Positions 989-63,495 of a DNA stretch of 64,000 nucleotides are shown piece after piece. The stretch comes from an uncultured Actinomycetota bacterium (GTDB taxonomy: Bacteria > Actinomycetota > Actinomycetes > Mycobacteriales > QHCD01): positions 194,871-258,870 of the forward strand of contig CAWHER010000003.1 in the NCBI GenBank assembly GCA_963828605.1, given 5' to 3'. Position 1 is the first letter of the stretch; each line of letters starts with the position of its first letter. The position numbers and the translations under genes are program-made. The notes beneath the pieces were generated by a model. That model searched no databases. It was given only the letters and a program-made list of their open reading frames with translations, and was not told the DNA's origin.

Positions 989-1477
989 ATGCTGCCGAAA
1001 AGGATCATCGCGACCGGTGTCGGCGCAGTCGTCGTCGCCGGCGGCGTGGCGGTGGGCGGCGTGGCGGCCGCAGACAGCGCGACGTCGAGCACCCACAGCT
1101 CGACGTCGTCCACGACGACCACCTCCTCGACCGGTACGACGTCCGCCAGGTCCGGCGCCCATCACCGCCGGCATCGCCTCGCCCGTCGCGCCCTGCACGG
1201 CGAGTTCGTCGTCCGGGGCAAGGGCGGCAAGGACGTCACCGTCGACATGGTGCGCGGAAAGGTGACCGCGGTGAGCCCCACCTCGATCACGATCGCCTCC
1301 CCGGACGGCTACTCCGCGACGTACACCGTCAGCTCGACCACCCGGGTGCACGTGCGCGGGGAGAAGGGGAAGAAGTCGATCAGCGTGGTCAAGACCGGCG
1401 ACCGGGTGGGCGCGTTCGGCGCGAAGACCGGCAGCACGGTCGGTGCGCGGGTGATCGTCGACCGCGGCGCCAAGTAA
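989..1477 (+). CDS. secreted or membrane-anchored hypothetical protein with Ser/Thr-rich linker
   Basis: ATG 989 is preceded by GGAAGGA. The protein has an N-terminal hydrophobic segment (IIATGVGAVVVAGGVAVGGVAAA), a poly-S/T linker and a beta-rich C-terminal domain (VTAVSPTSITIASPDGYSATYTVSSTTRVHV). The upstream part of ORF 875..1477 overlaps the divergent AhpD-like gene start and is probably not translated. Confidence 0.5.
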   Translation: MLPKRIIATGVGAVVVAGGVAVGGVAAADSATSSTHSSTSSTTTTSSTGTTSARSGAHHRRHRLARRALHGEFVVRGKGGKDVTVDMVRGKVTAVSPTSITIASPDGYSATYTVSSTTRVHVRGEKGKKSISVVKTGDRVGAFGAKTGSTVGARVIVDRGAK

Positions 1478-1558
1478 GACTGCCGAGCCAGTAAGACCGC
1501 CGAGCCGGTAAGACCGCGGAGCCGGTAAGACCGCGGAGCCGGTAAGAGGAAGCACCGG
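1475..1558 (+). repeat. 17-bp tandem repeat, about 5 units (TAAGACCGCSGAGCCGG)
   Basis: Units read directly at 1475-1491, 1492-1508, 1509-1525 and 1526-1542 (the last two identical), plus a degenerate unit at 1543-1558. The first unit starts with the TAA stop codon of the upstream gene. Confidence 0.9.
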
Positions 1559-7691: not shown

Positions 7692-8713
7692 GCCTCGCCG
7701 CTCTTCCGTTCGGAGGAGGACTCGCGTTCGCGGCGACCGCCGTAGACGGCCTGGCGCAGGCCGCGAATGTAGCCGATGGCGAACAGCCGGCCAAAGGCCG
7801 AATAGCCGGCGTGGTCGTTGTTGTCGCCTTCGACGGTCGGCACGTGATCGGGCCGCAGCACCCCGTCGAAACCGATGTCGCGATAGGCGCGCAGGCAGGC
7901 CAGCAGATCGGTCTGGCCGTCGTCGTGCCAGGTCTCCTCGAACTTCTCCGCGCGTGCCGCGCACGTCGCGGAAATGGACGAAGAAGATCTCCCTGGCCCG
8001 AACTGGCGGATGACCGCCGGGCAGGTCGTCGGTCATCAGGGTGAAGTTGCCCTGGCACAGCGTGATGCCGTTCATCTGGGCTGGCGACCAGGTCCGAGCA
8101 GCCGCTGGTAGTTGTCGATGCTGCGCATGATGCGCCCGACGCCGCGGATCGGCGAGAGCGGCGGGTCGTCCGGGTGCATGGCGAGCTTGACGTTCGGCCT
8201 TCCGCGACCGGCAGGACCCGCCTCAGGAAGTAGTCGAGATTCGCCCACAGTTCGTCCTCGCTGATCGGCCCGAGTTCGGGTCGGCGGCGCGCGTCGAGCA
8301 GGCTCTTGTCGAAGCTGGTCACCACCGAGCCGCCGCGCGAGGGGACGTCGGTGTTGGTGCGCAGCCAGTTGAAGTCGGTCATCCACTCGTAGCACCACAC
8401 CGGGATGCCGAGCCGGCCCATGTTCTCCAGCAGGGTGCACACGGTATCGATCTCCGCGTCGCGGCCGGGCAGACCCGCGCTTGGCCTTGTTCAGCGGCGG
8501 CCGCGCCTCGATGACGGCGAGCGAAAAGCCCGCCATCTCGTACTTCTGCTTCAGCCGCAGCAGGGGGAGGTAGTCCCACGGGCGCTCCCCCGGGGAGAGG
8601 TCGTGATCGCCGGGCAGCCCTCCGACGGCGTATCCCACGCCGGCCTGGCTCATCAACCGCCAGAGGTGTTGATGGGCCGGATCCGGCGGCAACATCTCGG
8701 CGATCTTGATCAA
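7601..8713 (-). pseudogene. uxuA: mannonate dehydratase (UxuA type), frameshifted
   Basis: TTG 8711-8713 follows GAGAGGGAG (LIKIAEMLPPDPAHQHLWRLMSQAGVGYAVGGLP...). Further pieces lie in other frames: [53 protein letters not shown], and [33 protein letters not shown]. At least three frame changes. The 3' end is uncertain. Confidence 0.7.
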
Positions 8714-11028: not shown

Positions 11029-11484
11029 ATGGACTCACCACCCAGCGACCGCCCTTACCCGGAACTCGCCGGCGGCGAGGCCCGGGTGTTCACCGACTTC
11101 GGCACGGGGCACCTGCCCGGCCTGCTCGGCGTCGAGGTTCTCTCGGTGGACCCGGACCGGATCACCGGACGGCTCGTCGTGCGGCCGGACCTGCTGGCGC
11201 CCAACGGGTTCCTGCACGCGGGCACGGTGGTCAGCCTCGCCGATTCGCTGTGCGGGTACGGCGCGATCGTCAATCTGCCCGACGGCGCGACCGGGTTCAC
11301 CACGATCGAGTTGACCAGCAACTTCCTCGGGACTCTGCGGGACGGCGCGCTGCTCGGTACGGCGACCCCGGTCCACGTCGGCCGGAGCACCCAGGTCTGG
11401 GACGCGACGGTCCGCGACGAGAAGTCCGAGCGCCGGCTCGCGGTCTTCCGGTGCACCCAGATGGTGCTCTGGCCGCGGTCTTGA
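11029..11484 (+). CDS. PaaI family (hotdog-fold) thioesterase
   Basis: ATG 11029. Motifs LLAPNGFLHAGTVVSLADSLCGYGA and ATPVHVGRSTQVWDATV are typical of PaaI/YdiI thioesterases. Confidence 0.8.
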   Translation: MDSPPSDRPYPELAGGEARVFTDFGTGHLPGLLGVEVLSVDPDRITGRLVVRPDLLAPNGFLHAGTVVSLADSLCGYGAIVNLPDGATGFTTIELTSNFLGTLRDGALLGTATPVHVGRSTQVWDATVRDEKSERRLAVFRCTQMVLWPRS

Positions 11485-11519
11485 GGCGCGGCCGCGCCCC
11501 GAGGAGCGCGCCGCCGCCG

Positions 11520-12953
11520 TCAGGACGCCTTGCTCACCGTCGACATGTTGAAGTCGCCGATGCGCAGCGCCGGCATCGCCGTCCGGGTGAAGTAGTCGTT
11601 CCACTCCCGGCACAGGGTGATCGCCCGAGCTGCCGACCTCGCCGATACGCGCCGAGCAGGTCGACCGGGCTCTCGTTGAAGCGGAAGTTGTTGACCGCGC
11701 CGGTGACCTCGCCGTCCTCGACGAGGTAGACGCCGTCGCGGGTCAGGCCGGTGAGCAGCAGGGTCTGCGGGTCGACCTCGCGGATGTACCACAGGCAGGT
11801 CAGCAGCAGCCCGCGCTCGGTCGCCGGCGACCAGGTCCTCGAGCGGACCGACCGCCGTCCGGGCCGTCGAGGACGAGGTTGTCGACAGCCGGCGTGGCGT
11901 CGCCGCCCGTGCGCGCGGCCCACGACCGGGTGCCGCAGCAGAGAGGTCGAGACGCCGTCGCGGATCCAGTCGGTGCGGCCCGAGCGGCAGCCCGTTGTCG
12001 AAGACCGAGCTCGGCGGCGTTGGACGACGTCGCGGCCACGAACGGCGCGCACTCCAGGCCCGGCGTCGGCCGGGTCGCTGCGCAGGGTCACCGGGAGGTC
12101 GGACAGCCGCTCGCCGATCCGGGTGCCGCCGCCGGGCTTGGAGAAGACCGTGCGGCCCTCGTCGGCGTCCCGCGCCGCCGGCCGACCAGTAGGCGTAGAT
12201 CATCAGGTCGGCGACGGCGGCGGGCGGCAGGAGCGTCTCGTAGCGGCCCGGCGGGCAGGTCGATGCGGCGCTGCGCCCAGCCGAGCCGGCGGGCGAGCTC
12301 GGCATCGAGAGCCGGGACGTCGACGTCGGTGAAGTCGCGGGTCGCCTGCCCGACCCAGGCGCGAGCGGGTGAGGTCCGGCGGACTTGCCGTTGAGCTCGA
12401 GCTGGCCGGTCGGCTGGACGTGCCGCAGCCGCAGCCCGGTCGACGAGCCGAGGTAGATCGTGGTCGACCTAGTGCTCGGCGAAGCCGAAGAGCAGCCGCC
12501 CGCCGGACCGCGGCCCGGCCGAAGGCCTCGCCGAGCGCCGGGGCGAAGTCGGCGAAGACCTGGACCGAGGTCTCGTCCGGCGGCGTCGTCCCAGTCCGGC
12601 GCGCTGCGCCGGCCGGCTCGACCACGGCGTCGCGTCGTCGGCCGGACCGGCGTCGCGGGCCGCGCGCTCGGAGGCGCGCACCAGCGTCGCTCGACAGGTC
12701 GGCCGTCACCGCGCTGCGCTCGACCGACGCCCGCGGCGGCGCCGGCGGTCCCGTCGACGACGCTGATCACCGTCGATGCTGCGGGACCGCATCTCGCCGT
12801 TGGTGGTGAGGGTGTTGTTGGCCCACCGCAGGTTGGCCTCGGTGCGTTCGCCGCGACGATGCACGACGCAGCTCGTCGCCGCGCGTCGAGGTCGCGGCCA
12901 GCGGCGCGCTCGACGATGCTCCTGGTGGAGCTCGGCGGCGCAGCCCGGCTCAT
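11520..12953 (-). pseudogene. TldD/PmbA family metallopeptidase (PmbA/TldE-like partner), frameshifted
   Basis: ATG 12951-12953 overlaps the TldD stop (ATGA). Recognisable peptides are [77 protein letters not shown], and the C-terminus REWNDYFTRTAMPALRIGDFNMSTVSKAS*. The pieces are scattered over all three frames. Confidence 0.7.
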
Positions 12954-14470
12954 CGGCCGCCCTCCGCGACGGTGTTGAGGATGTTGACGCCGCGGAACAG
13001 CGCGGCGGGCAGCCGTGGCTGACCGCGGCGACCTGGCCGGGCTGGGCCTTGCCGCAGTTGAACGCGCCGCCGAGCACGTAGGTCTGCGGGCCGCCGACCG
13101 CCTCCATCGAGCCCCAGAAGTCGGTCGTCGTGGCCTGGTAGGCGACGTCGCGCAGCTGGCCGGCCAGCTCGCCGTTCTCGATGCGGTAGAACCGCTGGCC
13201 GGTGAACTGGAAGTTGTAGCGCTGCATGTCGATCGACCACGACTTGTCGCCGACGACGTAGATGCCCGCGCTCGACCCGGCCGATCAGCTCGTCGGTGGT
13301 CGGGCCGTCGGGGGCCGGCTGCAGGGACACGTTGGCCATCCGCTGGACCGGGATGTGGCCCGGGGAGTCGGCGAAGGCGCAGCCGTTGGAGCGGCCGAGT
13401 CCCTTCGAGCTTCGCCATCCGGCCGGTCGAGCTGGTAGCCGACCAGGATGCCGTCCCGGACGAGGTCCCAGCTCTGCGCCGGCGACGCCCTCGTCGTCGT
13501 AGCCGATCGGTGGCGAGGCCGTGCTCGGCGGTGCGGTCGCCGGTGACGTTCATGACGGCGGAGCCGTACGGCAGGGTGCCGAGCTTGTCGTAGGTCGCGA
13601 ACGACGTGCCGGCGTAGGCGGCCTCGTAGCCGAGCGCGCGGTCGAGCTCGGTGGCGTGGCCGATCGACTCGTGGATGGTCAGCCAGAGGTTGGACGGGTC
13701 GATCGACCAGGTCGTAGCGTGCCGGCCTCGACCGACGGCGCCTTGGTGCTTCTCGGCCAGCAGCTCGGGGATCTCGGCGCAGCTCGGCGTCCCAGTCCCA
13801 GCCGGTGCCGGTGAGGTACTCCCAGCCGCGGCCGACCGGCGGCGCGAGCGTGCGCATCGTCTCGAACGTGCCGTGCGCCGCGTCGACGGCCACCGCGGTC
13901 AGCGCCGGGTGCAGCCGGATCCGCTGCTGGGTGGTGACCGTGCCGGCGAGGTCGGCGTAGAACTTGTTCTCCAGCACCTGCGACGAGCCGCGCGTCGACG
14001 TGGTCGACCGCCGTCGGCGGCCAGCAGCCGCTCGGACCAGTCGGCGAGCACGGCCGATCTTCTCGGCGTCGGGCACGGCGAACGGGTCGACGTCGTACGC
14101 CGAGACCCAGCTGACGTCGTCGTAGACCGGCTCGTCGGCCAGCTCGACCGGCTCGGAGTTGACAGCGGCGCTGACCCGGGCCACGTCGACGGCCTGCTCG
14201 GCGACGCGGACGGCCGCCTCGGCGGTGAGGTCGACGCCGGAGGCGAATCCCCAGGTGCCCGTCGTGCACCACCCGGACGGCGAACCCGACCTCCTCGCCG
14301 TCGCGCGGCGCTCTCCAGCACGCCGTCGCGCAGCGCAGATGTCCTGGTTGCGGATCCGCTCGAGGCGGAAGTCCGCATGCTGGACGCCGAGCTCGACGGG
14401 CCCGCTCCAGGGCGGCGTCGGCGAGGCGACGCATCGGCAGCGCGAGGAACGCCGGGTCGATCTGGGACAC
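12950..14470 (-). pseudogene. tldD: TldD family metallopeptidase, frameshifted
   Basis: GTG 14468-14470 follows AAGGAGG (VSQIDPAFLALPMRRLADAALERA). Recognisable peptides are ELGVQHADFRLERIRNQDI, TWGFASGVDLTAEAAVRVAEQAVDVARVSAAVN, and the C-terminus QRYNFQFTGQRFYRIENGELAGQLRDVAYQATTTDFWGSMEAVGGPQTYVLGGAFNCGKAQPGQVAAVSHGCP...ALFRGVNILNTVAEGGR*. Many frame changes. Confidence 0.7.
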
Positions 14471-14654
14471 GGGTGCCCTCCTTGACGCGAGCGGAGCGGA
14501 TGGCCCGACCCTACCCGGACCCGCTGACGGCGATCGACGGATTTGGCGGCCGACGCCCGGGGTCGGATTCGGTCCACTCCGGTCGCTCCGCGCGGGCATA
14601 CGATGACCGCGGCCCGCCACGTCTACCGCGTCGTGCGGATCGGAGGGGCACGCT

Positions 14655-15017
14655 GTGGCCGACGAACCGAGCGACGCGGTATCGGAGAGCCCGAGCCGGG
14701 CGCGCGACCTGATGGCCAACGAGCGCACCTACCTGGCCTGGCTGCGCACCGCGGTGAACGTCATGGTCCTCGGGTTGGCGATCGCGCGGTTCGGCAGCAA
14801 GGACCAGGCGGCGTCGCTCGCCGCCGGCGGGATCGTCGTCGTGGTCGGCGCCGCCGGCCTGGCCTACGGCACCGTCCGCTACCGGAAGGTCAACGCCCAG
14901 ATCGAGGCCGGGCGCTACCTGACCGGCCGCAGCGGCACGGTCGCACTGGTGGCGTCCGGCGTCCTGGTCCTCGCCACCGTCGCCGCCCTCCTGCTGCTGG
15001 TCACCGCGGGGAATTGA
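14655..15017 (+). CDS. DUF202 (YidH-like) membrane protein
   Basis: GTG 14655 follows GGAGGGG. The ANERTYLAWLRTAVNVMVLGLAIARFG motif and three TM helices fit the family. Confidence 0.75.
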   Translation: MADEPSDAVSESPSRARDLMANERTYLAWLRTAVNVMVLGLAIARFGSKDQAASLAAGGIVVVVGAAGLAYGTVRYRKVNAQIEAGRYLTGRSGTVALVASGVLVLATVAALLLLVTAGN

Positions 15018-15322: not shown

Positions 15323-16762
15323 ATGAGCGACGCTGGTAGGCGCGAGGGCTCACCTGAGGAGTGGACCGGGTCCGACATCGGAGCATGGGCGGTGCCGCCC
15401 GGACGGGCCGGTGCTGACTGGGTGCCCGCCGCCGGACCCTACTGGGCGCCGGTCGGCCCGCCGGCGCGGCGAGGCCACCACCTGCGGGGTCCGGTCGCGC
15501 TCGGTGCGGCCGCGCTGATCGCGGTCGGCGCAGCCGGCGGCGCCGGGCTGGGTCACCTGATCTGGCAGAGCCCCGGGACGGCCACCCGGGATCTCGGTGT
15601 GTCCGCCGGCGCGGCCCCGGGTGGGTCGACCGGCGGCGGCTCGCTGGGCGGCACCGGGCAGAACGGAACCGGCGGCGGCTCGCTGGGCGGCACCGGGCAG
15701 AACGGAACCGGCGGCGCGACGGGCGGTACCGGGCAGAACGGGACCGGCGGCACCGGGCAGAACGGGACCGGCGGCCAGGGAAGCGGCGGCCAGGGAAGCG
15801 GCGGGCCGTCGGACGTCGCGTCCATCGCGGCCAAGGTCTCTCCGGCACTGGTCGACATCAACACCGACCTGGGCTACCAGGGCGGGCAGGCCGCCGGCAC
15901 CGGCATCGTGCTGACCTCCACCGGCGAGATCCTCACCAACAACCATGTGATTGCCGGGGCCACCCGGATCAGCGCCACGGATGTGGGCAACGGCACGACG
16001 TACACCGCGACGGTCACCGGATACAACAAGTCGCACGACATCGCCGTACTGCAGCTGCAGAACGCCCACGGACTGACGACCGCGAAGATCGGCGACTCGT
16101 CGAAGGTCTCGGTCGGCGATGCGGTAGTCGCGGTCGGCAACGCCGGCGGTACCGGCGGGACGCCGAGCAGTGCGGGCGGCTCGGTCATCGCCCTGCACCA
16201 GGCGATCACCGCGAGCGATGAGAACGGCGCCGCCAGCGAACAGCTGACCGACGTGCTGGCGATCGACGCCGACGTCGAGCCGGGCGACTCCGGGGGTTCG
16301 CTGGTCAATACCGCCGGAGAGGTGATCGGGGTGGACACCGCGGCGTCGTCGAGCCTGACGGCCCGGTCGAGTGCGAGTGCGCAGGCCTTCGCCATCCCGA
16401 TCGCCGAGGCGACGTCGATCGCGGCGCAGATCGAGTCCGGCCAGGCATCGTCGTCCGTCCACATCGGCGCCACGGCGTTCCTCGGCGTGACGACCTCCTC
16501 GACGTCCGACGGCCGCTATGGGTCGGCCGTCCCGGGCGCGCAGATCAGCGATGTCCTCGACGGCGGCGCCGCGGCGCGGGCCGGTCTCTCGGCCGGTGAC
16601 GTCATCACCTCGCTGGGCGGCCGCACGGTCGACTCCGCCGAGGCCCTGAGCGCCATGATCGCGACGTACCACCCGGGAGACCGGGTGTCCCTGGCCTGGA
16701 CCGCTGCCTCGGGTCAGTCCCAGACCGCGACGGTCACCCTCGGCAGCGGCCCGGCGGCCTGA
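15323..16762 (+). CDS. HtrA-like S1C serine protease with C-terminal PDZ domain
   Basis: Order of parts: N-terminal cytoplasmic segment, TM helix (GAAALIAVGAAGGAGLG), Gly-rich linker, catalytic triad contexts TNNHVI / HDIAVL / GDSGGS, then a PDZ domain (AARAGLSAGDVITSLGG). Confidence 0.85.
   Translation: MSDAGRREGSPEEWTGSDIGAWAVPPGRAGADWVPAAGPYWAPVGPPARRGHHLRGPVALGAAALIAVGAAGGAGLGHLIWQSPGTATRDLGVSAGAAPGGSTGGGSLGGTGQNGTGGGSLGGTGQNGTGGATGGTGQNGTGGTGQNGTGGQGSGGQGSGGPSDVASIAAKVSPALVDINTDLGYQGGQAAGTGIVLTSTGEILTNNHVIAGATRISATDVGNGTTYTATVTGYNKSHDIAVLQLQNAHGLTTAKIGDSSKVSVGDAVVAVGNAGGTGGTPSSAGGSVIALHQAITASDENGAASEQLTDVLAIDADVEPGDSGGSLVNTAGEVIGVDTAASSSLTARSSASAQAFAIPIAEATSIAAQIESGQASSSVHIGATAFLGVTTSSTSDGRYGSAVPGAQISDVLDGGAAARAGLSAGDVITSLGGRTVDSAEALSAMIATYHPGDRVSLAWTAASGQSQTATVTLGSGPAA
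15632..15799 (+). repeat. in-frame Gly-rich tandem repeats inside the protease linker
   Basis: A perfect 39-bp duplication (15632-15670 and 15671-15709, GGGSLGGTGQNGT) is followed by 36-bp and 24-bp derivatives (15710-15769). Two identical 15-bp units follow (15770-15784 and 15785-15799, GGQGS). Confidence 0.9.
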
Positions 16763-16805
16763 CGCCCGATCCGTCCCCACCCCCCAGCCCTCCCCCCCTA
16801 CCGCC

Positions 16806-16863
16806 CCATGATCGTGATCGGAAAAAGCCGCGAAACGCCGTGCCGATCCGATCACGATCATGG
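16806..16863 (+). repeat. 58-bp palindromic intergenic element, copy 1
   Basis: CCATGATCGTGATCGG-aaaaAGCCGCGAAACGCCGTgccgat-CCGATCACGATCATGG. It starts 43 nt after the protease stop codon. Confidence 0.9.
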
Positions 16864-16971: not shown

Positions 16972-18750
16972 ATGCGCCAGACGACGCGACCGACGCTGCG
17001 CGGCACCTTCGGAATGGTGTCCTCCAGCCACTGGCTGGTCTCCTCGGTCGCGATGGGGGTGCTGGAGCGCGGCGGCAACGCCTTCGACGCGGCCGTCGCC
17101 GGCGCCTTCATGGAGCACGTCGTCGAGCCGAACGAGAACAGCCCGGGCGGCGACGCCAACATCATCTTCGCCACGGCGGCCGACAACGTGCCCACCGTTC
17201 TGTGCGGTCAGGGTCCGGCGCCCGCGGGCGCGACCATCGACCACTACACCGGGCTCGGCCTGCGGGTGGTGCCCGGCACGGGACCCCTCGCCGCGGCGAT
17301 TCCCGGCGCCGTCATCGCCTGGCTGACCCTGCTGCACGACCACGGCAGCATGAGCCTGCGGGAGGTGCTCGACCCGGCCATCGGCTACGCCGCCCACGGG
17401 CACCCGATCATCGCCGACATCTCGACCAAGGTCGCCGGGATGGAGGAGATGTTCCGGACCGAGTGGACCACGTCGGCCGAGCTCTACCTGACGCACGGCC
17501 GGCCGCCGCTCCCCGGTGAGATGCACCGAAACCCCGCACTGGCAGCGATGTGGCAGCGCCTGCTCACCGAGGCGGAGGCCGGCACGTCCGACCGCGACGC
17601 CCAGATCGACCGGGCCCGCCGGATCTGGTCGGAGGGGTTCGTCGCCGAGGAGATCGAGGCGTTCGCCCGCCGGCCGGTGATGGACTCGAGCGGGCAGCGC
17701 CATGCCGGGGTACTCACCGGCGCCGACCTGGCCGGCTGGCGGGCGCCGTACGAATCGGCGTTGACCTACCGCTACGGCGACTGGACGGTCGCCAAGGCGG
17801 GACCGTGGGCGCAGTCACCGGTCTTCCTCCAGCAGTTGGCGCTCCTGCCCGACCCGGACCAGCTCGACTACGGCAGCGCCGACCTGGTGCACCGCGTGAT
17901 CGAGGGCGTGAAGCTCGCCTTCGCCGACCGCGAGGCGTGGTACGGCGACGGCTACGACACCCCGATCGATGCGCTGCTGTCCGAGGACTACAACAAGGGC
18001 CGCCGGGATCTCATCGGCCACGATGCCAGCCGGGAACTGCGGCCCGGCTCGCCCGGCGGACGGACACCGACGCTGCCCGCCTACCTGCATTCCGGCGTCA
18101 CCGAGCAGCCCGCGACCCCGGGCACGGGCGAGCCGGGCGAGGACTTCGTCGGGCGGAAATCCGACGGGGACACCTGTCACTTCGACGTGGTCGACCGGTG
18201 GGGCAACATGGTCTCGGGCACGCCCAGCGGCGGCTGGTTGCACGGCAACCCGGTAATCCCGACCCTCGGCTTCCCGCTCGGTACCCGGCTGCAGATGACC
18301 TGGCTCGAGCCCGGGTTCCCGACCTCGCTCACGCCGGGCCGGCGCCCGCGCACCACATTGTCGCCGTGCCTCGCGCTGCGCGACGGCGTACCGGCGATGG
18401 CGTTCGGCGTACCCGGCGGCGACGCGCAGGATCAGTGGGCCTACAACTTCTTCCTCGGTGTCGCGGTGGGCGGGCTGTCCCTTCAGGAGGCGGTCGACGC
18501 GCCCGGCTGGCACACGATGGCGTTCCCCAACTCGTTCTATCCACGCAAGAGCCAGCCCGCGTCCCTCTACCTCGAGGACCGGCACCCGGCCCATGTCGTC
18601 GACGAACTCCGCCGGCGCAGGCACGACGTCACCGTCGTGGAGCCGTGGTCGCTCGGCCGGCTGTCGGCGGTGGCCCGCGACCCCGAGACGGGTGTCCTGT
18701 CGGCGGCGGCGAGCCCTCGGGAGATGCGGGCCTACGCCGTCGGACGCTGA
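16972..18750 (+). CDS. gamma-glutamyltransferase family protein
   Basis: Intact 592 aa. The N-terminus is GMVSSSHWLVSSVAMGVLERGGNAFDAAVA. The autoprocessing/nucleophile context is GDTCHFDVVDRWGNMVSGTPSGGW. ATG 16972 follows GGAGGCAGG. Confidence 0.9.
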   Translation: MRQTTRPTLRGTFGMVSSSHWLVSSVAMGVLERGGNAFDAAVAGAFMEHVVEPNENSPGGDANIIFATAADNVPTVLCGQGPAPAGATIDHYTGLGLRVVPGTGPLAAAIPGAVIAWLTLLHDHGSMSLREVLDPAIGYAAHGHPIIADISTKVAGMEEMFRTEWTTSAELYLTHGRPPLPGEMHRNPALAAMWQRLLTEAEAGTSDRDAQIDRARRIWSEGFVAEEIEAFARRPVMDSSGQRHAGVLTGADLAGWRAPYESALTYRYGDWTVAKAGPWAQSPVFLQQLALLPDPDQLDYGSADLVHRVIEGVKLAFADREAWYGDGYDTPIDALLSEDYNKGRRDLIGHDASRELRPGSPGGRTPTLPAYLHSGVTEQPATPGTGEPGEDFVGRKSDGDTCHFDVVDRWGNMVSGTPSGGWLHGNPVIPTLGFPLGTRLQMTWLEPGFPTSLTPGRRPRTTLSPCLALRDGVPAMAFGVPGGDAQDQWAYNFFLGVAVGGLSLQEAVDAPGWHTMAFPNSFYPRKSQPASLYLEDRHPAHVVDELRRRRHDVTVVEPWSLGRLSAVARDPETGVLSAAASPREMRAYAVGR

Positions 18751-18796: not shown

Positions 18797-18854
18797 CCAT
18801 GATCGTGATCGGAAATAGCCGCGAAACGCCGTATGGATCCGATCACGATCATGG
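18797..18854 (+). repeat. 58-bp palindromic intergenic element, copy 2
   Basis: CCATGATCGTGATCGG-aaatAGCCGCGAAACGCCGTatggat-CCGATCACGATCATGG. It starts 46 nt after the GGT stop codon. Confidence 0.9.
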
Positions 18855-21170: not shown

Positions 21171-21874
21171 GTCGGCTCCTCGGCGTCGTAGCGGTAGCCG
21201 ACGCCCCAGACGGTCAGGATGCGGGTGGGTTTCGAGGCATCCAGCTCGATCTTCTCCCGGAGCCGGCGCACGTGCACGGTCACCGTCGCATGGTCGCCGA
21301 AGGTCCAGCCCCATACCCGTTCGAACAGCTCGGCCCGGCTGAACGCCGTACCGGGATGGGTGAGCAGGAAGGCCAGCAGGTCGAACTCGCGCGCGGTGAG
21401 GGTCAGTTCGGCTCCGTCGAGCGAGGCGTGGTGCGCTCCGACGTCCACGACCAGCCCCCCGTCGCGCAGCACCATCGCCGTGGGTGGCGGCGGCGCGGAG
21501 GTACGGCGCAGCACCGACCTGACCCGCAGGGCCAGCTCCCGAGGCGAGAACGGCTTGGTCAGGTAGTCGTCGGCGCCCATCTCCAGGCCGAGCACCCGGT
21601 CGGCCTCCTCGCCCAGCGCCGTGAGCATGACGATCGGCACCGGGTGGACGGCCCGCAGGGCCCGGCACACCTCCAGACCGGATAACCCGGGCAGCATCAG
21701 GTCGAGCACCACGAGGTCGGGCGGATCGGCCAGGGCGTGGGCGAGCGCGGCCTCGCCGTCGCTGACGACGTCGACAGCCAGCCGGTCGCGCTCCAGATAG
21801 CGGCGTACGACGTCGCTCACGGTCGGATCGTCGTCGACCACGAGGACCCGCGCCGACGACCGCTCGGTCGTCAC
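21167..21874 (-). CDS. OmpR/PhoB family response regulator
   Basis: Receiver domain ([10 protein letters not shown]...[14 protein letters not shown]...[31 protein letters not shown]) plus a winged-helix output domain ([31 protein letters not shown]...VWGVGYRY). Confidence 0.9.
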
Positions 21875-21893
21875 GGCCGAAGCCTAGGCGCGC

Positions 21894-21925
21894 TTGCCTG
21901 TGACATTGATGTCAGGTTCTACCGT
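21894..21925 (+). promoter_or_regulatory. MerR-type promoter/operator (site S1) upstream of the OYE gene
   Basis: A TTGCCT -35-like hexamer, a 20-nt spacer containing the dyad TGACAT-tg-ATGTCA (21901-21914), and a TACCGT -10-like hexamer. ATG 21932 lies 6 nt after the -10, implying a leaderless mRNA. It is near-identical to site S2 at 25253-25283. Confidence 0.5.
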
Positions 21926-21931
21926 CGCGCC

Positions 21932-23056
21932 ATGGCCGACGACGCGGACTACCGCCACCTTCTCGCCCCCCTCCGGCACCCTGCGCTCCGTGCAGCTCAC
22001 CGGGTGGTCATGGCACCGATGACCAGGTTCCGCGCCGACGACGACGGCGTCCCGCTGCCGAGCGTCGCGCAGTACTACGCCCAGCGGGCCGGCGCCGCCC
22101 TCGTCGTCACCGAGGGGATCTGGCCGAGCACCCTCGGCCAGTCCGACCGGCACATGCCGGGGCTCGCGACCGGGCACCAGGTCAAGGCCTGGGGCGAGGT
22201 GACGGCGGCCGTGCACGCCGAGGGCGGCACGATCTTCGCCCAGCTCATGCACTCCGGGCGCTCCTCGCATCCGGACAACCGGCTGGACGGTTCAGTGCCG
22301 CTGGCGCCGTCGGCCGTCGCGCCGCCGGGGCTGCTGCACGTCGGCGGCACCAAGCGGCCCTATCCGCTGCCCCGCGTCATGTCGCACGACGACATCGCAC
22401 AGGCCGTCGACGACCACGTGCAGGCGGCCCGCAACGCGATGGCCGCGGGTTTCGACGGCGTCGAGTTGCACGGCGCCAACGGGTACCTGATCCACCAGTT
22501 CCTGAGCGACAACACCAACCTGCGCGACGACGAGTACGGCGGTTCGCCCGCCGGCCGCATCGCCTACCCGGTCGAGGTGACGCGCGCCGTAATCGAGGCG
22601 ATCGGGGCGAGTCGGGTCGGCATCCGCCTCTCCCCCGGCAATCCCATCAACGGGCACCTCGAGGCCGACCCGGCCGGTGTGTACCGGCCGCTGGTCGCGG
22701 CGCTCTCCGACCTCGGCCTGCGCTATCTGCACCTCACCGACAACACGCGGTACGCGGCACTCGCGGACCTGCGGCCGTACTTCTCCGGCCTGCTGATCGG
22801 CAACACCGGGTTCGGCCACACCACGACACCCGAGGCGGGTGATGCGCTCGTCCGGGACGGGCTCGCCGACCTGGTGTCGTTCGGCCGCCTCTACATCGCC
22901 AACCCCGACCTGCCGGACCGACTGCGGGACGGGCTGCCGCTCGCCGGCTACGACGAGCGGACGCTCTACACCCAGGCCGACGCCGGCTACATCGACTACC
23001 CGCGGGCATCCGCGCCCGTCTACGTGCGGGAGCCGGCCGTCGCCTGCGCCGGCTAG
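21932..23056 (+). CDS. NADH:flavin oxidoreductase / alkene reductase (Old Yellow Enzyme family)
   Basis: ATG 21932. Family motifs are RVVMAPMTRFRA, QYYAQRAGAALVVTEGIWPS, GVELHGANGYLIHQFLSDNTNLRDDEYGGS and ADLVSFGRLYIANPDLPDRL. Confidence 0.9.
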   Translation: MADDADYRHLLAPLRHPALRAAHRVVMAPMTRFRADDDGVPLPSVAQYYAQRAGAALVVTEGIWPSTLGQSDRHMPGLATGHQVKAWGEVTAAVHAEGGTIFAQLMHSGRSSHPDNRLDGSVPLAPSAVAPPGLLHVGGTKRPYPLPRVMSHDDIAQAVDDHVQAARNAMAAGFDGVELHGANGYLIHQFLSDNTNLRDDEYGGSPAGRIAYPVEVTRAVIEAIGASRVGIRLSPGNPINGHLEADPAGVYRPLVAALSDLGLRYLHLTDNTRYAALADLRPYFSGLLIGNTGFGHTTTPEAGDALVRDGLADLVSFGRLYIANPDLPDRLRDGLPLAGYDERTLYTQADAGYIDYPRASAPVYVREPAVACAG

Positions 23057-23087: not shown

Positions 23088-23145
23088 CCATGATCGTGAT
23101 CGGGAAAAGCCGCGAAACGCCGTACGGATCCGATCACGATCATGG
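23088..23145 (+). repeat. 58-bp palindromic intergenic element, copy 3
   Basis: CCATGATCGTGATCGG-gaaaAGCCGCGAAACGCCGTacggat-CCGATCACGATCATGG. It starts 31 nt after the OYE stop codon. Confidence 0.9.
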
Positions 23146-39061: not shown

Positions 39062-39526
39062 ATGGCCTTGAGCAATCCCAGCGCCCTGCTCGACGACATC
39101 AACCGCCGGCTGCTCCGAGAGCTACACGGCGACCCGCGCATGACGATGTCCGCGCTCGCCCGGCGGGTCGGCATGTCCGCCCCGGCGGTGACCGAGCGGG
39201 TACAGCGGATGGAGCGGGCGGGCGTGATCGCCGGCTACCGGATGGAGGTGGACCCCGCCGCCCTCGGGCTGCCGGTCACCGCGTTCGCCCGGATCCGGCC
39301 CGCCGCCGGAGCGCTCCCCAAGATCGCCGAGCTGGCGGCAGCTCTCCCGCAGGTCAGTGAATGCCACCGCATCACCGGCGAGGACTGCTTCCTCGTCAAG
39401 GTCCACGCGCCCGCCATCGAGGATCTGGAAGCGATCCTCGACCGCTTCCTGCTCTACGGGCAGACCGTGACGTCGATCGTGGTGTCCAGCCCGGTGCCGC
39501 CCCGACCGTTGCCCGTCAGCGACTGA
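39062..39526 (+). CDS. Lrp/AsnC family transcriptional regulator
   Basis: ATG 39062. The HTH region is LDDINRRLLRELHGDPRMTMSALARRVGMSAPAVTERVQRMERAGVIAGY, followed by a RAM/ACT-like C-terminal domain. Confidence 0.85.
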   Translation: MALSNPSALLDDINRRLLRELHGDPRMTMSALARRVGMSAPAVTERVQRMERAGVIAGYRMEVDPAALGLPVTAFARIRPAAGALPKIAELAAALPQVSECHRITGEDCFLVKVHAPAIEDLEAILDRFLLYGQTVTSIVVSSPVPPRPLPVSD

Positions 39527-41330: not shown

Positions 41331-41368
41331 CCCTACGAGGTACCGAGATTGCCCCCACTTGAGGGCAG

Positions 41369-41396
41369 ACCCTAACAAGCGCAACGGGAGGTCAGC
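41369..41396 (-). promoter_or_regulatory. predicted promoter of paralog A (GCTGAC-N16-TAGGGT)
   Basis: On the minus strand, a -35-like GCTGAC (41391-41396) and a -10-like TAGGGT (41369-41374). The same hexamers and spacing recur upstream of paralog B. Confidence 0.3.
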
Positions 41397-41459
41397 GGCC
41401 TCCACGGCCCGGTTGGGGTCGACGAGCGGGTTCCGGCCCCGCCACCGGCCCCCGGCCGG

Positions 41460-43282: not shown

Positions 43283-43321
43283 CCCTACGAGGTGCCCGGC
43301 TTGCCTCCGCTTGAGGTCCAG

Positions 43322-43349: not shown

Positions 43350-43421
43350 GGCGTCCACCGCATAAGCTGCTCCCCCGGTGGAGTGCCGCCGCCCGACCGC
43401 ACACCGTCAGGAGAATCTGCC

Positions 43422-61725: not shown

Positions 61726-62577
61726 GTGCAATGGTGGGCCGCGCACATCGACGATGACGAGCCGGAGGTGGCGGTGGGCGGGCCGACGTACGAGCGTTTC
61801 GGCGGCTCCGAAGGCACGGTCGTCTACCGCGTCTGGCCGAGCGGGCAGCCGCGCCGGATCGTCGCGATCGCGCACGGCTATGGCGAGCACATCGGCCGCT
61901 ACGAGTACCTCGCCGAGACGCTGGTCGCCGACCACGGCGTCGTCTGCGGCCCGGACCATCTCGGCCACGGTCGAAGCGACGGCGAACGCGCCCTCGTGAC
62001 CGACTTCGAGCACCTCGTCGACGACCTGCACGCCGTCGTCGAGCGGGTGAGCTCGACGTACGCCGGTCTGCCCACCGTCCTCATCGGGCACTCGCTGGGC
62101 GGGCTCGTCGCCGCCCGCTACGCCCAGCGCTACGCCGACGAGCTCGCCGGCCTGGTGCTCTCCGCGCCGGTCGTCGGGAGCTGGAAGGCCAGCACCGACC
62201 TGCTCGCTCTCACCGAGCTGCCCGACCAGCCGCTCGACGCCGGCACGCTGTCGCGGGATCCGGCCGTGGCTGCGTCCTACGAGGCGGATCCGATCGTCTA
62301 TCACGGTCCCTTCAAGCAGCAGACCCTGCGGGCGATCGCCGGCACTCTGCATGTGGTGAACTCCGGCCCCGGGCTGGCGGACCTGCCGACGTTGTGGCTG
62401 CACGGCCAGGACGACGAGCTCGTTCCGCTCGTCGAGTCGACAGTGGGCATCGAGACGCTCGCCCCGGAAAACCTCACGACGCGGATCTACCGTGGCGCCA
62501 AGCACGAGGTGTTCAACGAGATCAACCGGGACGAGGTCGCCCGCGACACCGTGCAGTTCATCAACCGGGTGACCTGA
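61726..62577 (+). CDS. alpha/beta hydrolase, monoacylglycerol lipase / lysophospholipase-like
   Basis: GTG 61726. Motifs are AIAHGYGEHIGRY, the nucleophile elbow GHSLGG, and LWLHGQDDELVP...KHEVFNE. Confidence 0.8.
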   Translation: MQWWAAHIDDDEPEVAVGGPTYERFGGSEGTVVYRVWPSGQPRRIVAIAHGYGEHIGRYEYLAETLVADHGVVCGPDHLGHGRSDGERALVTDFEHLVDDLHAVVERVSSTYAGLPTVLIGHSLGGLVAARYAQRYADELAGLVLSAPVVGSWKASTDLLALTELPDQPLDAGTLSRDPAVAASYEADPIVYHGPFKQQTLRAIAGTLHVVNSGPGLADLPTLWLHGQDDELVPLVESTVGIETLAPENLTTRIYRGAKHEVFNEINRDEVARDTVQFINRVT

Positions 62578-62606
62578 CGCTGCAGCGTCGACTCCCTCCG
62601 CCCCGC

Positions 62607-62664
62607 CCATGATCGTGATCGGATAAAGCCGCGAAACGCCGTGCGGATCCGATCACGATCATGG
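62607..62664 (+). repeat. 58-bp palindromic intergenic element, copy 4
   Basis: CCATGATCGTGATCGG-ataaAGCCGCGAAACGCCGTgcggat-CCGATCACGATCATGG. It starts 29 nt after the lipase stop codon and lies between convergent genes. Confidence 0.9.
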
Positions 62665-62700
62665 AGCGGGCGGCGGGGGCGGGCGGCACCGGCGGGCGGG

Positions 62701-63495
62701 TCAGGTGGTCCAGGCCCGCCAGACCTGCTCGGCCACTGCCGGTCCCGCGGCGAGCAGACCGGGGTCGGAGGCGCCGGGCAGCACGGGAACGTCGGCACCG
62801 TCGCGTCCCATGACCCGGGCGCCCGCTTCCTGCGCGATGAGTACGCCGGCCAGCACGTCCCAGGTGTTGAAGCTGCCGAGCACCACCGCGGCGGCGCGAC
62901 CCGCCGCCGCGCTCGCCAGTGACAGCGCCGACGACCCCATGATGCGGGTGGAGACCTGGGCCGCGGACAGCCTGGCCAGCATCTGCTCCATCCCCGGCCA
63001 CGACCGGTACGCCGCCCACTCGGTGAGCACGACCTCTCCGGCGAGGTCGGACGCCGCCGAGCAGCGGACCGGGTCGCCGTTGCACCGGGCGCCCCGGCCA
63101 CGGACGGCGCTGAAGACCTCCCGCCGGTCCGGGTCGGCGACGACGGCGACGGCCGGTCCGGACGCGTCGGCGAGGGCCAGGCTGAACGACGTCCACGGCA
63201 GACCGTGGGCGTAGTTGGTCGTCCCGTCGACCGGGTCGACGTACCAGACCTCGCCGGCGGCCGACGGTTCGCCCGCCCCGAGTTCCTCGCCGATGACCTG
63301 GTGACCCGGAAACCGCGCCGCGATCTCGGCCCGCACCCGCTCCTCGACCTCGCGGTCGGTCTCGGTGACCAGGTCGGCGGGCCCCGCCTTCGTCGCCACC
63401 TGCGTCGGTCGGTGGGAGCCGATCCGGTCGACGGCCCACCGGCCGAGCTCCTCGGCGAAGGGCAGGATCTGATCCAGGTCGGTGTCGGTCAGCAC
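62701..63495 (-). CDS. inositol monophosphatase family protein
   Basis: GTG 63493-63495 follows GAGGGGA. Motifs are DLVTETDREVE, WYVDPVDGTTNY and WDVLAGVLIAQEAG. The ORF-track start at 63720 overlaps the upstream gene. Confidence 0.85.
   Translation of the reverse strand: MLTDTDLDQILPFAEELGRWAVDRIGSHRPTQVATKAGPADLVTETDREVEERVRAEIAARFPGHQVIGEELGAGEPSAAGEVWYVDPVDGTTNYAHGLPWTSFSLALADASGPAVAVVADPDRREVFSAVRGRGARCNGDPVRCSAASDLAGEVVLTEWAAYRSWPGMEQMLARLSAAQVSTRIMGSSALSLASAAAGRAAAVVLGSFNTWDVLAGVLIAQEAGARVMGRDGADVPVLPGASDPGLLAAGPAVAEQVWRAWTT

What the first reader, a model, noticed from the sequence alone, without database searches (positions are those of the whole stretch)
16806..16863. Family of four near-identical 58-bp hairpin elements placed just after + strand genes
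CCATGATCGTGATCGG-N26-CCGATCACGATCATGG occurs at 16806-16863, 18797-18854, 23088-23145 and 62607-62664.
- **Conservation:** the 16-nt arms are identical in all four copies, and so is a central 16-nt block, AGCCGCGAAACGCCGT. Differences are confined to a few nt on either side of that block.
- **Position:** all copies share one orientation. Each begins 29-46 nt after the stop codon of a + strand gene (protease, GGT, OYE reductase, lipase) and follows a C-rich tract.
- **Other properties:** there is no T-tail, and every copy carries five GATC sites.
- **Interpretation:** the stems are kept by sequence identity rather than by compensatory changes. That points to a DNA-level, recently spread or protein-recognised element (REP/MITE-like). 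It may also serve as an I-shaped terminator or 3'-UTR stabiliser. Four independently evolved terminators seem less likely.

I do not recognise it as a named family.
Basis: partly seen in the sequence, partly recalled or inferred. Interest (0 to 1): 0.72.

Follow-up and report, generated by a model that had tools for sequence, protein, structure and literature searches.

The report
REP-like 58-bp hairpin repeat family
The four 58-bp hairpins are real. They belong to an apparently undescribed superfamily of dispersed palindromic repeats that sit just after genes in a few soil actinomycete genomes, a counterpart of the REP elements of E. coli whose copying enzyme and function are still unknown.

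Summary
**Observation:** confirmed. Four copies share identical 16-nt arms and a 16-nt loop core. Each lies 29-46 nt after a + strand stop codon, and none is expected by chance.

**What it is:** family 'A' of a larger hairpin-repeat superfamily.
- It occurs in the closest related metagenome-assembled genomes (MAGs; Actinomycetospora-like) and in one other Mycobacteriales MAG.
- All members have about 16-bp arms starting CCATGATC and a 25-26-nt loop.
- At least six subfamilies differ in the inner arm, with the change always compensated on the other arm. Some also differ in the loop.
- The A loop core recurs with three other arm types.

**Placement (95 elements):**
- Convergent gaps are 2.6-fold enriched and divergent gaps 3-fold depleted.
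- Elements lie a median 35 nt after the upstream stop, often in clusters.
- Loop orientation is not strict.

**Evolution:**
- Copy 1 is kept at the orthologous site in five sequences. Its arms are 96% identical, its flanks 31-40%.
- Other sites show replacement or absence.

**Negative results:** no target-site duplication, U-tail, Rfam family, RAYT gene or phage copy was found.

**Best reading:** a REP/BIME-like element that forms a 3'-end hairpin usable from both directions. It is copied or homogenised at the DNA level by an unidentified mechanism.

**Verdict:** a new member of a known kind, of moderate interest.

The parts
16806..16863 (+). Copy 1 (family A). Left arm 16806-16821, loop 16822-16847 (core 16826-16841), right arm 16848-16863. 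It lies between the HtrA-like protease gene and the GGT gene.
   Evidence: Exact match. CM 77.2 bits. RNA fold -42.4 kcal/mol, z -6.2. Conserved at the orthologous site in L017, L067, L205 and L206.
18797..18854 (+). Copy 2 (family A), 46 nt after the GGT stop codon and 127 nt before the next + strand gene.
   Evidence: At the orthologous site, L017 carries a family H hairpin with the same loop core instead. In L067 and L205 the gene downstream of GGT is different and no A copy follows GGT.
23088..23145 (+). Copy 3 (family A), 31 nt after the OYE (Oxidored_FMN) stop codon and upstream of a PHO4 phosphate transporter gene.
   Evidence: L067 keeps the downstream gene and its 5' region but has a different upstream gene and no element.
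62607..62664 (+). Copy 4 (family A), 29 nt after the alpha/beta-hydrolase stop codon, in a convergent gap with an inositol monophosphatase gene on the - strand.
   Evidence: The orthologous site in L078 holds a family G element plus the remnant right arm of an A. L081 and L082 hold an A with a decayed right arm.
62594..62677 (.). Extended imperfect stem around copy 4: a C-rich 5' flank pairs with a G-rich 3' flank (31-nt arms, 87% complementary).
   Evidence: I15. Folds (-50.1 kcal/mol as RNA, -38.3 as DNA). General flank composition.
16763..16805 (+). C-rich, G-poor spacer between the protease stop codon and copy 1. Its sequence is not conserved between orthologues, but its C-richness is kept.
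   Evidence: Identity between orthologues is 40% for this spacer and 90% for the element.
15323..16762 (+). Upstream gene of copy 1: HtrA-like serine protease with a PDZ domain (start codon uncertain).
   Evidence: Pfam Trypsin_2 and PDZ.
16972..18750 (+). Gamma-glutamyltranspeptidase gene, flanked by copies 1 and 2.
   Evidence: Pfam G_glu_transpept, 1e-96.
21737..23056 (+). Upstream gene of copy 3: OYE-type NADH:flavin oxidoreductase.
   Evidence: Pfam Oxidored_FMN.
61726..62577 (+). Upstream gene of copy 4: alpha/beta hydrolase (lysophospholipase-like).
   Evidence: Pfam Hydrolase_4. An identical protein, P0001, is recorded on a 1.55-Mb contig.
62701..63495 (-). Convergent downstream gene of copy 4: inositol monophosphatase family. 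Its stop codon lies 36 nt from the element.
   Evidence: Pfam Inositol_P. The same arrangement is found in L078.

Best explanation
**What it is.** The four copies are family 'A' of a superfamily of dispersed extragenic palindromic repeats in Actinomycetospora-like and Mycobacteriales genomes.

**Anatomy (shown).**
- Each unit has a 16-bp stem whose outer 8 bp (CCATGATC / GATCATGG) are shared by all subfamilies.
- The inner 8 bp are subfamily-specific and always complementary.
- The loop is 25-26 nt.
- The flanks are loosely C-rich on the 5' side and G-rich on the 3' side, which lengthens the stem.
- From background density in the fetched loci, there are roughly 100-200 elements per genome.

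**Placement (shown).** Units accumulate just after stop codons, especially between convergent genes. They are often clustered with units of other subfamilies, like the BIME clusters of REP elements in E. coli.

**Function (inferred).**
- When the upstream gene is transcribed, the unit folds into a very stable hairpin at the mRNA 3' end.
- There it could block 3' exonucleases or help define the transcript end, possibly with a factor that reads the conserved foot or loop.
- The arms are a perfect palindrome, so the stem forms whichever strand is transcribed. This fits the convergent-gap enrichment and the loose loop orientation.

**Spread and upkeep (partly shown, partly inferred).**
- Shown: the family is maintained at the DNA level. 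Evidence is genome-specific loop variants shared by paralogous copies, replacement of one subfamily by another at orthologous sites, and arms that stay identical while flanks diverge.
- Inferred: the process is gene conversion, template switching within the palindrome, or a hairpin-recognising enzyme that leaves no target duplication. No such enzyme was found.
For: **Family and spread**
- Near-identical copies in the window, none expected by chance.
- The same arms and core occur in MAGs MFD01213 and MFD05442 and in Actinomycetospora U5255. The same arms with a different loop occur in Mycobacteriales SMAG_U5588.
- Further subfamilies C, D, E, F, G and H exist.

**Stem**
- 94.7% of cells are paired. 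9 of 18 pairs change on both sides. TGATC at columns 4-8 is invariant.

**Placement (95 elements)**
- 40 convergent, 46 tandem, 9 divergent; expected from gap length 15.7, 52.3 and 27.0 (chi-square p = 1e-11).
- Median 35.5 nt to the upstream stop versus 97.5 nt to the downstream start.
- 16 further hairpins lie within 500 nt of the sampled ones, against 12 in the remaining roughly 7 kb per locus. Background density is about 18-33 per Mb.
- One unit follows an Rfam-recognised sRNA gene.

**Stability**
- Hairpins fold at -36 to -50 kcal/mol as RNA, z -4.7 to -9.2. They also fold as ssDNA.

**Conservation and turnover**
- Orthologous copy 1: element 90% identical and arms 96%, versus 40% and 31% for the flanks. 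This includes two contigs retrieved without reference to the element.
- Site of copy 4: A versus G plus an A remnant.
- Site of copy 2: A versus H.
- The GACAC loop variant is in 5 of 13 copies in MFD05442 and 1 of 22 in MFD01213, including one orthologous pair (Fisher p = 0.019).
- No target-site duplication.
Against: - **No expression data.** Nothing shows that the hairpin ends or stabilises transcripts.
- **No U-tract.** None follows the stem. According to the abstract of PMC3993855 (listed), mycobacterial RNA polymerase requires a U-tract at intrinsic terminators.
- **No strand bias in wobble pairs.** G-T mismatches in the arms are no commoner on the sense strand (9 sense versus 12 antisense). 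The compensation therefore need not reflect selection on RNA.
- **More conservation than a hairpin needs.** The arms and loop core are conserved well beyond what a mere hairpin requires, which points to protein recognition or a copying mechanism.
- **No mobilising enzyme found.** About 690 kb around the elements was checked.
- **Divergent gaps.** 9 of 95 elements lie in them, though some of these may be gene-calling errors.
- **Sampling bias.** Most related loci were fetched with a pattern that required exact inner arms.
Confidence: 0.6

Rival explanations
1. It is a purely selfish miniature transposon (MITE). The CCATGATC... arms are terminal inverted repeats bound by a DDE transposase encoded elsewhere in the genome. 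Gene 3' ends are simply where insertions are tolerated, and the element has no host function.
For: - Termini are conserved across subfamilies with different interiors, as in MITE families that share a transposase.
- There are many near-identical copies.
- Orthologous sites show presence, absence and replacement.
- Elements are clustered or nested.
Against: - No copy-specific target-site duplication at any boundary offset.
- The inner arms are compensated in every subfamily, which a dsDNA terminal repeat does not require.
- Copy 1 is kept intact at one orthologous site in five related sequences while its flanks diverge to 31-40% identity.
- No transposase gene recurs in the 618 predicted proteins of the sampled loci.
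- No longer element with these ends was seen.
Confidence: 0.15
2. It is a dedicated, lineage-specific transcription termination or 3'-end processing signal, analogous to the TRIT motif of Mycobacterium. A host factor reads the conserved double-stranded foot or the loop. Copies arise because the signal is selected at many gene ends, and mobility plays no part.
For: - Strong 3'-end placement and convergent-gap enrichment.
- The palindrome works in both directions.
- The sequence is conserved beyond what pairing needs, as the RNIE authors noted for TRIT (PMC3152330).
- Orthologous conservation with diverged flanks.
- A unit follows an sRNA gene.
Against: - Only about 4 of roughly 58 genes in the window carry one, so it cannot be the general terminator.
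- Loops that are near-identical at non-core positions, and genome-specific variants shared by paralogues, imply copying and not convergence.
- There is no U-tract.
- In M. tuberculosis the predicted TRITs overlapped only 2-4% of mapped 3' ends (bioRxiv 10.1101/2022.06.01.494293).
- TRIT lies around position -8 relative to the stop codon, whereas these lie 13-60 nt after it.
Confidence: 0.15
3. It is a double-stranded DNA binding site for a nucleoid-associated or regulatory protein (two CCATGATC half-sites 42 bp apart) that organises the chromosome or regulates the neighbouring genes.
For: - The outer 8 bp are invariant on both arms and the spacing is fixed at 25-26 nt in all subfamilies.
- In three window copies a + strand gene starts 109-167 nt downstream.
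Against: - The neighbouring genes are functionally unrelated.
- Elements favour convergent gaps, which hold no promoters, and sit nearer the upstream stop than the downstream start.
- At the site of copy 4 the element stays with the upstream gene when the downstream gene differs.
- Binding to duplex DNA does not explain compensated inner arms.
Confidence: 0.07

Closest known systems
REP / BIME elements of Enterobacteria and Pseudomonas (REPINs, mobilised by RAYT tyrosine transposases)
   Same: - Short extragenic palindromes, estimated at roughly 100-200 per genome.
- They sit after genes and between convergent genes and are rare in divergent promoter regions.
- Several sequence classes coexist in one genome and share a short conserved tag.
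- Units of different classes cluster.
- There is no target-site duplication.
- Many copies persist at orthologous sites.
- Proposed roles are mRNA 3' stabilisation and transcription attenuation.
   Different: - These are 58 nt with a perfect 16-bp stem and a large 25-26-nt loop. REPs are 20-40-nt imperfect palindromes.
- The conserved tag is the 8-bp double-stranded foot CCATGATC, present on both arms. REPs carry a single-stranded GTAG or CGTC tag at one end (PMC3733652, abstract listed).
- No regular inverted doublets (REPINs) were seen.
- No RAYT homologue was found near about 100 elements.
- The host phylum is Actinomycetota.
TRIT (Tuberculosis Rho-independent terminator) motif of Mycobacterium (Gardner et al. 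2011, PMC3152330)
   Same: - A highly sequence-conserved palindromic hairpin in a high-GC actinomycete of the order Mycobacteriales.
- There are 147 copies in M. tuberculosis.
- It is tightly associated with gene termini and mostly bidirectional.
- Its conservation suggests a factor that reads the double-stranded motif.
   Different: - TRIT is reported only in Mycobacterium.
- It is centred around -8 relative to the stop codon, that is, it overlaps the coding end. These elements start 13-60 nt after the stop.
- The TRIT consensus could not be retrieved, so sequence relatedness is untested.
- The model of this superfamily found nothing in 50 kb of the M. ulcerans plasmid pMUM001, which is a weak test.
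Bacterial MITEs with hairpin-forming terminal repeats (for example the Correia elements of Neisseria)
   Same: - Small non-coding units with terminal inverted repeats.
- They are intergenic, and their transcripts can fold into long hairpins.
- Subfamilies share termini.
   Different: - MITEs of DDE transposons carry target-site duplications (TA for Correia; from my own knowledge). None is detectable here.
- No parent IS element was found.
- The interior here is only 26 nt.
Hairpin origins and ends recognised by HUH endonucleases (IS200/IS605 ends, rolling-circle origins)
   Same: - The loop sequence is conserved while stems vary with compensation: the A loop core recurs with four different arm types (A, G, F and H).
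- There is no target duplication.
   Different: This is purely an analogy.
- No HUH gene, nick site or strand bias has been shown.
- Subfamilies B, C, D and E have unrelated loops.

Membership tests
REP / REPIN-RAYT system | Short (20-40 nt) imperfect palindrome with a conserved GTAG or CGTC tetranucleotide at one end | tested here: not met
   The units are 58 nt with perfect 16-bp arms. The ends are CCATG.../...CATGG, with no GTAG or CGTC tag. The definition is taken from the abstract of PMC3733652 (listed).
REP / REPIN-RAYT system | A RAYT (Y1 HUH transposase) gene in the genome, typically flanked by REPs | tested here: inconclusive
   E. coli RayT was compared by tblastn and phmmer with the window plus 83 loci (about 690 kb around some 100 elements). 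No hit scored better than E = 0.5. The query was a single distant sequence and only part of each genome was covered.
REP / REPIN-RAYT system | Extragenic, high copy number, at gene 3' ends, clustered in mosaic arrays (BIMEs) | tested here: met
   Clusters of 2-4 units of different subfamilies occur at L006 5858-6223, L041 3211-3494 and L064 5926-6352. The estimated density is about 18-33 per Mb.
MITE (non-autonomous DDE transposon) | Terminal inverted repeats | tested here: met
   The arms are 16 nt, and the outer 8 nt are shared by all subfamilies.
MITE (non-autonomous DDE transposon) | Copy-specific target-site duplication flanking each insertion | tested here: not met
   For 101 elements, flank identity at boundary offsets 0-5 and lengths 2-8 does not exceed that of shuffled partners. 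The largest z is about 2.3 among 36 tests. Only the palindromic consensus CATG/AT repeats.
MITE (non-autonomous DDE transposon) | An autonomous parent element with the same termini encoding a transposase | tested here: inconclusive
   No recurrent transposase-like protein is present among 618 predicted proteins of the loci. No solitary arms bracket a gene. Whole genomes were not available.
TRIT (Mycobacterium) | Match to the TRIT covariance model or consensus | not testable with these tools
   The consensus is given only in a figure of PMC3152330, no supplement is held, and TRIT is not in Rfam (no hit).
TRIT (Mycobacterium) | Narrow position around -8 relative to the stop codon; restricted to Mycobacterium | tested here: not met
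   The elements start 13-60 nt after the stop (median 35.5). The hosts are Actinomycetospora-like and an unnamed Mycobacteriales MAG.
Canonical intrinsic (Rho-independent) terminator | GC-rich hairpin followed directly by a U-tract | tested here: not met
   No T-run follows any copy. The scan does not flag them. In family B the T-run precedes the stem and the A-run follows it, on both strands.
Any Rfam family | Score at or above the gathering threshold | tested here: not met
   The window gave 0 hits. In E-value mode only sub-threshold miRNA-precursor hairpins appeared. In 18 loci the only hits were unrelated.

The most novel reading that the evidence does not exclude
The superfamily may be the substrate of a dedicated hairpin-recognising machinery in these actinomycetes that has not been described.

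**Two candidate forms**
- A non-RAYT single-strand DNA enzyme that copies or exchanges hairpin modules.
- An RNA-binding 3'-end factor.

**What it would read:** the invariant CCATGATC foot and/or the conserved loop core GCGAAACGCCGTACG.

**Why this is not excluded:** the same loop core is carried by four unrelated, fully compensated arm types (A, G, F and H). This 'conserved loop, swappable stem' architecture recalls HUH nick sites more than REPs or MITEs.
Probability: 0.2. Interest if true: 0.75.

Novelty: new member of a known kind. Interest (0 to 1): 0.5.

Why it matters
**A defined family in a group that lacks one.** High-GC actinomycetes largely lack canonical terminators, and how their transcripts end is an open question. 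Apart from TRIT in Mycobacterium, and as far as I could find, few sequence-defined 3'-end motifs or REP-like families are known for them.

**Concrete substrates for experiments.** The family is sharply defined, modular and orthologously conserved.
- Stems can be mutated with and without compensation.
- Loops can be swapped.
- These constructs would test whether hairpins without U-tracts end or stabilise transcripts in actinomycetes.

**A route to the factor.** The conserved foot and loop can serve as bait for whatever binds or copies the element.

**Practical uses.** The covariance model marks gene 3' ends and helps annotation of these uncultured genomes. The repeats are also likely break points in short-read assemblies.

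Tried and rejected
1. **Copy-specific flank pairing** (insertion into pre-existing terminator hairpins). Complementarity beyond the unit is only slightly above that of shuffled partners: 4.9 versus 4.5 of 12 for A, and 6.1 versus 5.5 for B. It mostly reflects generic C-rich and G-rich flanks.
2. **Target-site duplications.** None found.
3. **RNA-strand test by G-U wobble.** No sense-strand bias.
4. **GATC or Dam idea.** GATC is at expectation in the window.
5. **Metagenome scan** with TGATC-N18-22-CGAAACGCCG-N14-18-GATCA. All 120 rows were chance matches with at most 13 of 16 arm pairs, so the single scan was wasted.
6. **Phage association.** No viral contig carries the A or G arms.
7. **Plasmids.** No blastn match. 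A tblastn with GGT was uninformative.
8. **RAYT.** No homologue in the sampled DNA. Genes bracketed by two elements are ordinary housekeeping genes, for example a small non-transposase protein between two G copies in L066.
9. **TRIT consensus.** Not retrievable: no supplement is held, and other papers only cite it. Two accession guesses for mycobacterial plasmids failed. pMUM001 gave no hit.
10. **Clean empty site.** The comparisons for copies 2 and 3 are confounded by different neighbouring genes.
11. **Hexamer-repeat hairpins** in Acidobacteriota and Myxococcota share 13 nt of the arm. They lack the foot and the loop and were set aside as unrelated.
Full report
**1.

The pattern CCATGATCGTGATCGG-N26-CCGATCACGATCATGG matches exactly at 16806, 18797, 23088 and 62607 on the + strand. 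With three mismatches allowed there are no further matches, and none appeared in 100 shuffles. The 16-nt core AGCCGCGAAACGCCGT occurs only in these four places. An alignment with flanks shows that similarity stops at the 58-nt unit, apart from a C-rich left flank and a G-rich right flank.

The units start 43, 46, 31 and 29 nt after the stop codons of four + strand genes. Pfam confirms these as an HtrA-like protease, a gamma-glutamyltranspeptidase, an OYE-type reductase and an alpha/beta hydrolase.

Each unit folds into a 16-19-bp hairpin:

| Molecule | Energy (kcal/mol) | z-score |
|---|---|---|
| RNA | -36 to -50 | -4.7 to -9.2 |
| ssDNA (copies 1 and 4, with flanks) | -26.8 and -38.3 | -7.2 and -7.6 |

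No T-run follows the stem, and the simple terminator scan does not flag the units. The five GATC sites per copy are real but unremarkable, because GATC is at expectation in this 71% G+C window (548 sites, observed/expected 1.00).

**2. It is one family of a larger superfamily**

The hits fall into three groups:

- **Same arms, same core.** Two 'uncultured Actinomycetota' MAGs (MFD01213 and MFD05442) and an Actinomycetospora MAG.
- **Same arms, unrelated loop.** A Mycobacteriales MAG (SMAG_U5588), with loop TTTTTGGTTGCTATAGCCCCAACCA. I call this family B.
- **Longer hexamer-repeat stems.** A few Acidobacteriota and Myxococcota loci in which the 13-mer is part of (GTGATC)n stems. I set these aside.

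The window genome is a close relative of the two MFD MAGs. Syntenic proteins are 78-97% identical, and the window's hydrolase is recorded on a 1.55-Mb contig.

Searching the fetched DNA for single arms and for hairpins beginning xxxTGATC revealed further subfamilies. All have the same geometry of 16-nt arms and a 25-26-nt loop, and the same outer arm CCATGATC. They differ in the inner arm:

| Family | Left arm | Loop | Right arm |
|---|---|---|---|
| A | CCATGATCGTGATCGG | ATAAAGCCGCGAAACGCCGTACGGAT | CCGATCACGATCATGG |
| G | CCATGATCAAGAGGGG | ATTCCGGTACGAAACGCCGTACGAAT | CCCCTCTTGATCATGG |
| C | CCATGATCGTGAGTGG | ATTTGGTACC..GGTACCAAAT | CCACTCACGATCATGG |
| D | TCATGATCGACATCGA | ..GTGTCGCTATAGCGGCAC.. 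| TCGATGTCGATCATGG |
| F | CCATGATCATGAGGCA | GTAGAGCCGTGAATCGCCGACGAATT | TGCCTCATGATCATGG |

There is also a degenerate family E.

On an ungapped alignment of 41 distinct units:

- 94.7% of stem cells pair.
- 9 of 18 pairs change on both sides.
- Columns 4-8 (TGATC) and column 12 never vary.

These units were picked by a hairpin filter, so the paired percentage is partly built in. The compensated differences between subfamilies are not.

The loop core of A (CGAAACGCCGTACG) recurs in G and, in variant form, in F. It also recurs in a fourth type, family H, whose 30-nt arms are quite different (GACAAAACCCACTAGTAGTG.GTTTTG.TC). Both the foot and this loop are therefore conserved modules, while the inner stem is interchangeable.

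A covariance model built from the alignment finds only the four known copies in the window. It finds about 106 units in 73 related loci.

**3. Where the units sit**

I called genes with a self-trained codon-usage model, because GC3 is above 0.9 in these genomes. I then classified 95 units that had a called gene on both sides:

| Gap type | Observed | Expected from gap length |
|---|---|---|
| Convergent | 40 | 15.7 |
| Tandem | 46 | 52.3 |
| Divergent | 9 | 27.0 |

The chi-square p-value is 1e-11 against length and 7e-7 against gap counts. Family B alone has 20 convergent, 10 tandem and 0 divergent.

- **Distance.** In tandem gaps the unit lies a median 35.5 nt from the upstream stop and 97.5 nt from the downstream start. 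This holds whichever way the loop points.
- **Orientation.** Loop orientation relative to the gene is 17:8 for A (p = 0.11) and 1:6 for G. The uniform orientation in the window is therefore not a rule.
- **Clustering.** 16 additional hairpins lie within 500 nt of the sampled ones, against 12 in the remaining roughly 7 kb per locus. Up to four different subfamilies can lie side by side.
- **Copy number.** Background density suggests roughly 100-200 units per genome.
- **After an sRNA gene.** One unit lies 28 nt after an Rfam-recognised sRNA gene.
- **Flanks.** They are C-rich on the 5' side and G-rich on the 3' side, on both strands. Copy-specific complementarity beyond the unit is only marginally above that of shuffled partners.

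**4. Evolution: conserved sites, DNA-level upkeep, turnover**

*Copy 1.* It lies between the protease and GGT orthologues in MFD05442 (L017) and MFD01213 (L067). It is also present in two metagenome contigs retrieved through the GGT protein alone, without reference to the element (L205, L206). Pairwise identity across these five sequences:

| Region | Identity |
|---|---|
| Each arm | 96% |
| Whole unit | 90% |
| Loop | 82% |
| Last 20 nt of the protease gene | 84% |
| Spacer upstream of the unit | 40% |
| Sequence downstream of the unit | 31% |

The only arm change is a compensated outer pair (CCATG..CATGG to TCATG..CATGA).

*Other sites turn over.*

- **Site of copy 4.** MFD01213 has a complete G unit followed by the remnant right arm of an A. 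Two JGI contigs have an A with a decayed right arm and a different downstream gene. The unit therefore travels with the upstream gene.
- **Site of copy 2.** MFD05442 has an H unit with the same loop core in the opposite orientation. In MFD01213 and L205 a different gene follows GGT, and no A copy follows it.

*Loops.* Loop differences between orthologous copies (5.1 of 26) are no smaller than between paralogues (4.6). A loop variant (GACAC) is found in 5 of 13 copies in MFD05442 but in only 1 of 22 in MFD01213, including one orthologous pair (Fisher p = 0.019). This points to homogenisation or replacement within genomes and argues against purely vertical descent.

*Other tests.* There is no target-site duplication. 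Wobble-type mismatches in the arms show no bias for the sense strand (9 versus 12). The compensation therefore need not be RNA selection. Template switching within a palindrome, a mechanism known from work on quasipalindromes (my own knowledge), would also keep the arms complementary.

**5. What it most likely is and does**

*Shown.* This is a dispersed, modular, hairpin-forming extragenic repeat superfamily. It has strong 3'-end placement, clustering, orthologous persistence and DNA-level concerted change, and it leaves no target duplication.

*Inferred.* The transcribed unit forms a very stable hairpin at the end of the upstream message. It could act from either direction as a barrier to 3' exonucleases or as a transcript-end signal, possibly through a factor that reads the foot or the loop. 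Spread and upkeep would be by gene conversion, template switching or a hairpin-specific enzyme. This is how REP/BIME elements are thought to work.

*Against a simple intrinsic terminator.* There is no U-tract. The abstract of PMC3993855 (listed) reports that mycobacterial RNA polymerase requires a U-tract at intrinsic terminators. Also, only about four of some 58 genes in the window carry a unit.

*Rivals.* These are a purely selfish MITE, a dedicated TRIT-like signal without mobility, and a duplex-DNA protein site. Their evidence is set out in the rival section of this report.

**6. Comparison with what is known**

- **Databases and literature.** No Rfam family reaches threshold in the window or in 18 related loci. 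No paper in the library holds the arm sequence. No plasmid or phage record matches.
- **REP/RAYT.** Placement and clustering fit. The defining GTAG or CGTC tag is absent, and no RAYT homologue was found in about 690 kb around the elements. REP surveys in the library do not describe this family.
- **TRIT.** This motif of Mycobacterium is the closest concept. It is reported around -8 relative to the stop codon and only in Mycobacterium. Its consensus was not available to me, so relatedness is untested.

I therefore file the finding as working like a REP/BIME element, without membership of the REP-RAYT system, of the MITEs or of TRIT.

**7. Verdict**

Three points need correcting: the stems do covary across subfamilies, many copies are old and conserved, and orientation is not fixed.

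Novelty: a new member, in fact a superfamily, of a known kind. Interest is moderate (0.5). The unusual feature is a conserved loop core carried by four unrelated compensated stems. Together with the lack of any identified mobilising enzyme, this leaves room for a more novel mechanism (probability about 0.2).

Noticed in passing
L024 7666-7800, L045 3516-3640, L051 530-600, L073 6325-6420 (also L005, L013, L052, L056): In Myxococcaceae, Acidobacteriota, Terriglobia and delta-proteobacterial MAGs there are long hairpins whose arms are tandem hexamers, (GTGATC)n ... (GATCAC)n, up to about 10 units per arm. They sit inside even longer imperfect palindromes of GTGGAC-like hexamers. They share 13 nt with the window element's arm but have no CCATG foot and no common loop.
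   Followed up: no
L017 6309-6388; L054 about 7790-7880: Family H is a hairpin with 30-nt arms, GACAAAACCCACTAGTAGTG.GTTTTG.TC. Each arm is itself nearly palindromic around ACTAGT. The arms surround the same loop core (GCGACACGCCGTACGG) as families A and G. In L017 it occupies the site orthologous to window copy 2.
   Followed up: partly
L033 2608-2820 and 2848-2905: An Rfam Ms_IGR-5 actinobacterial sRNA match (77 bits) is followed 28 nt later by an E-type hairpin of the superfamily. The units therefore also follow non-coding genes.
   Followed up: no
L078 3904-3935: Directly after a complete G unit lies a solitary, slightly decayed right arm of an A unit together with the end of its loop (GCGCAGATCCGGTCACGATCATGA). 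This suggests replacement or deletion by recombination between the shared CATGATC termini.
   Followed up: partly
window 1474-1541: A tandem repeat of a 17-nt unit, GTAAGACCGCCGAGCCG (about 4 copies), lies at the end of a + strand ORF.
   Followed up: no
window 15595-15783: In-frame 36/39-nt repeats encoding a Gly-rich tract lie inside the HtrA-like protease gene.
   Followed up: no
window 39516-43361: Two tandem paralogous - strand genes (629 and 565 aa) are 78-85% identical at the DNA level. The similarity extends about 130 nt into their upstream regions.
   Followed up: no
window 11484-14655: The long ORFs here (for example 11520-13553 on the - strand, 677 aa) lack the GC3 signature of coding DNA seen everywhere else. 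The region may be frameshifted, atypical or non-coding.
   Followed up: no
L205 547-660: There is an insertion of about 113 nt next to the orthologue of copy 1. It begins with three tandem GGGTTGCCA repeats and is absent from the other four orthologous sequences.
   Followed up: no
L012 3811-3941 and 5591-5797: Two c-di-AMP riboswitch matches lie upstream of genes for Rpf-like secreted proteins in the SMAG_U5588 MAG. This looks like an ordinary arrangement.
   Followed up: no
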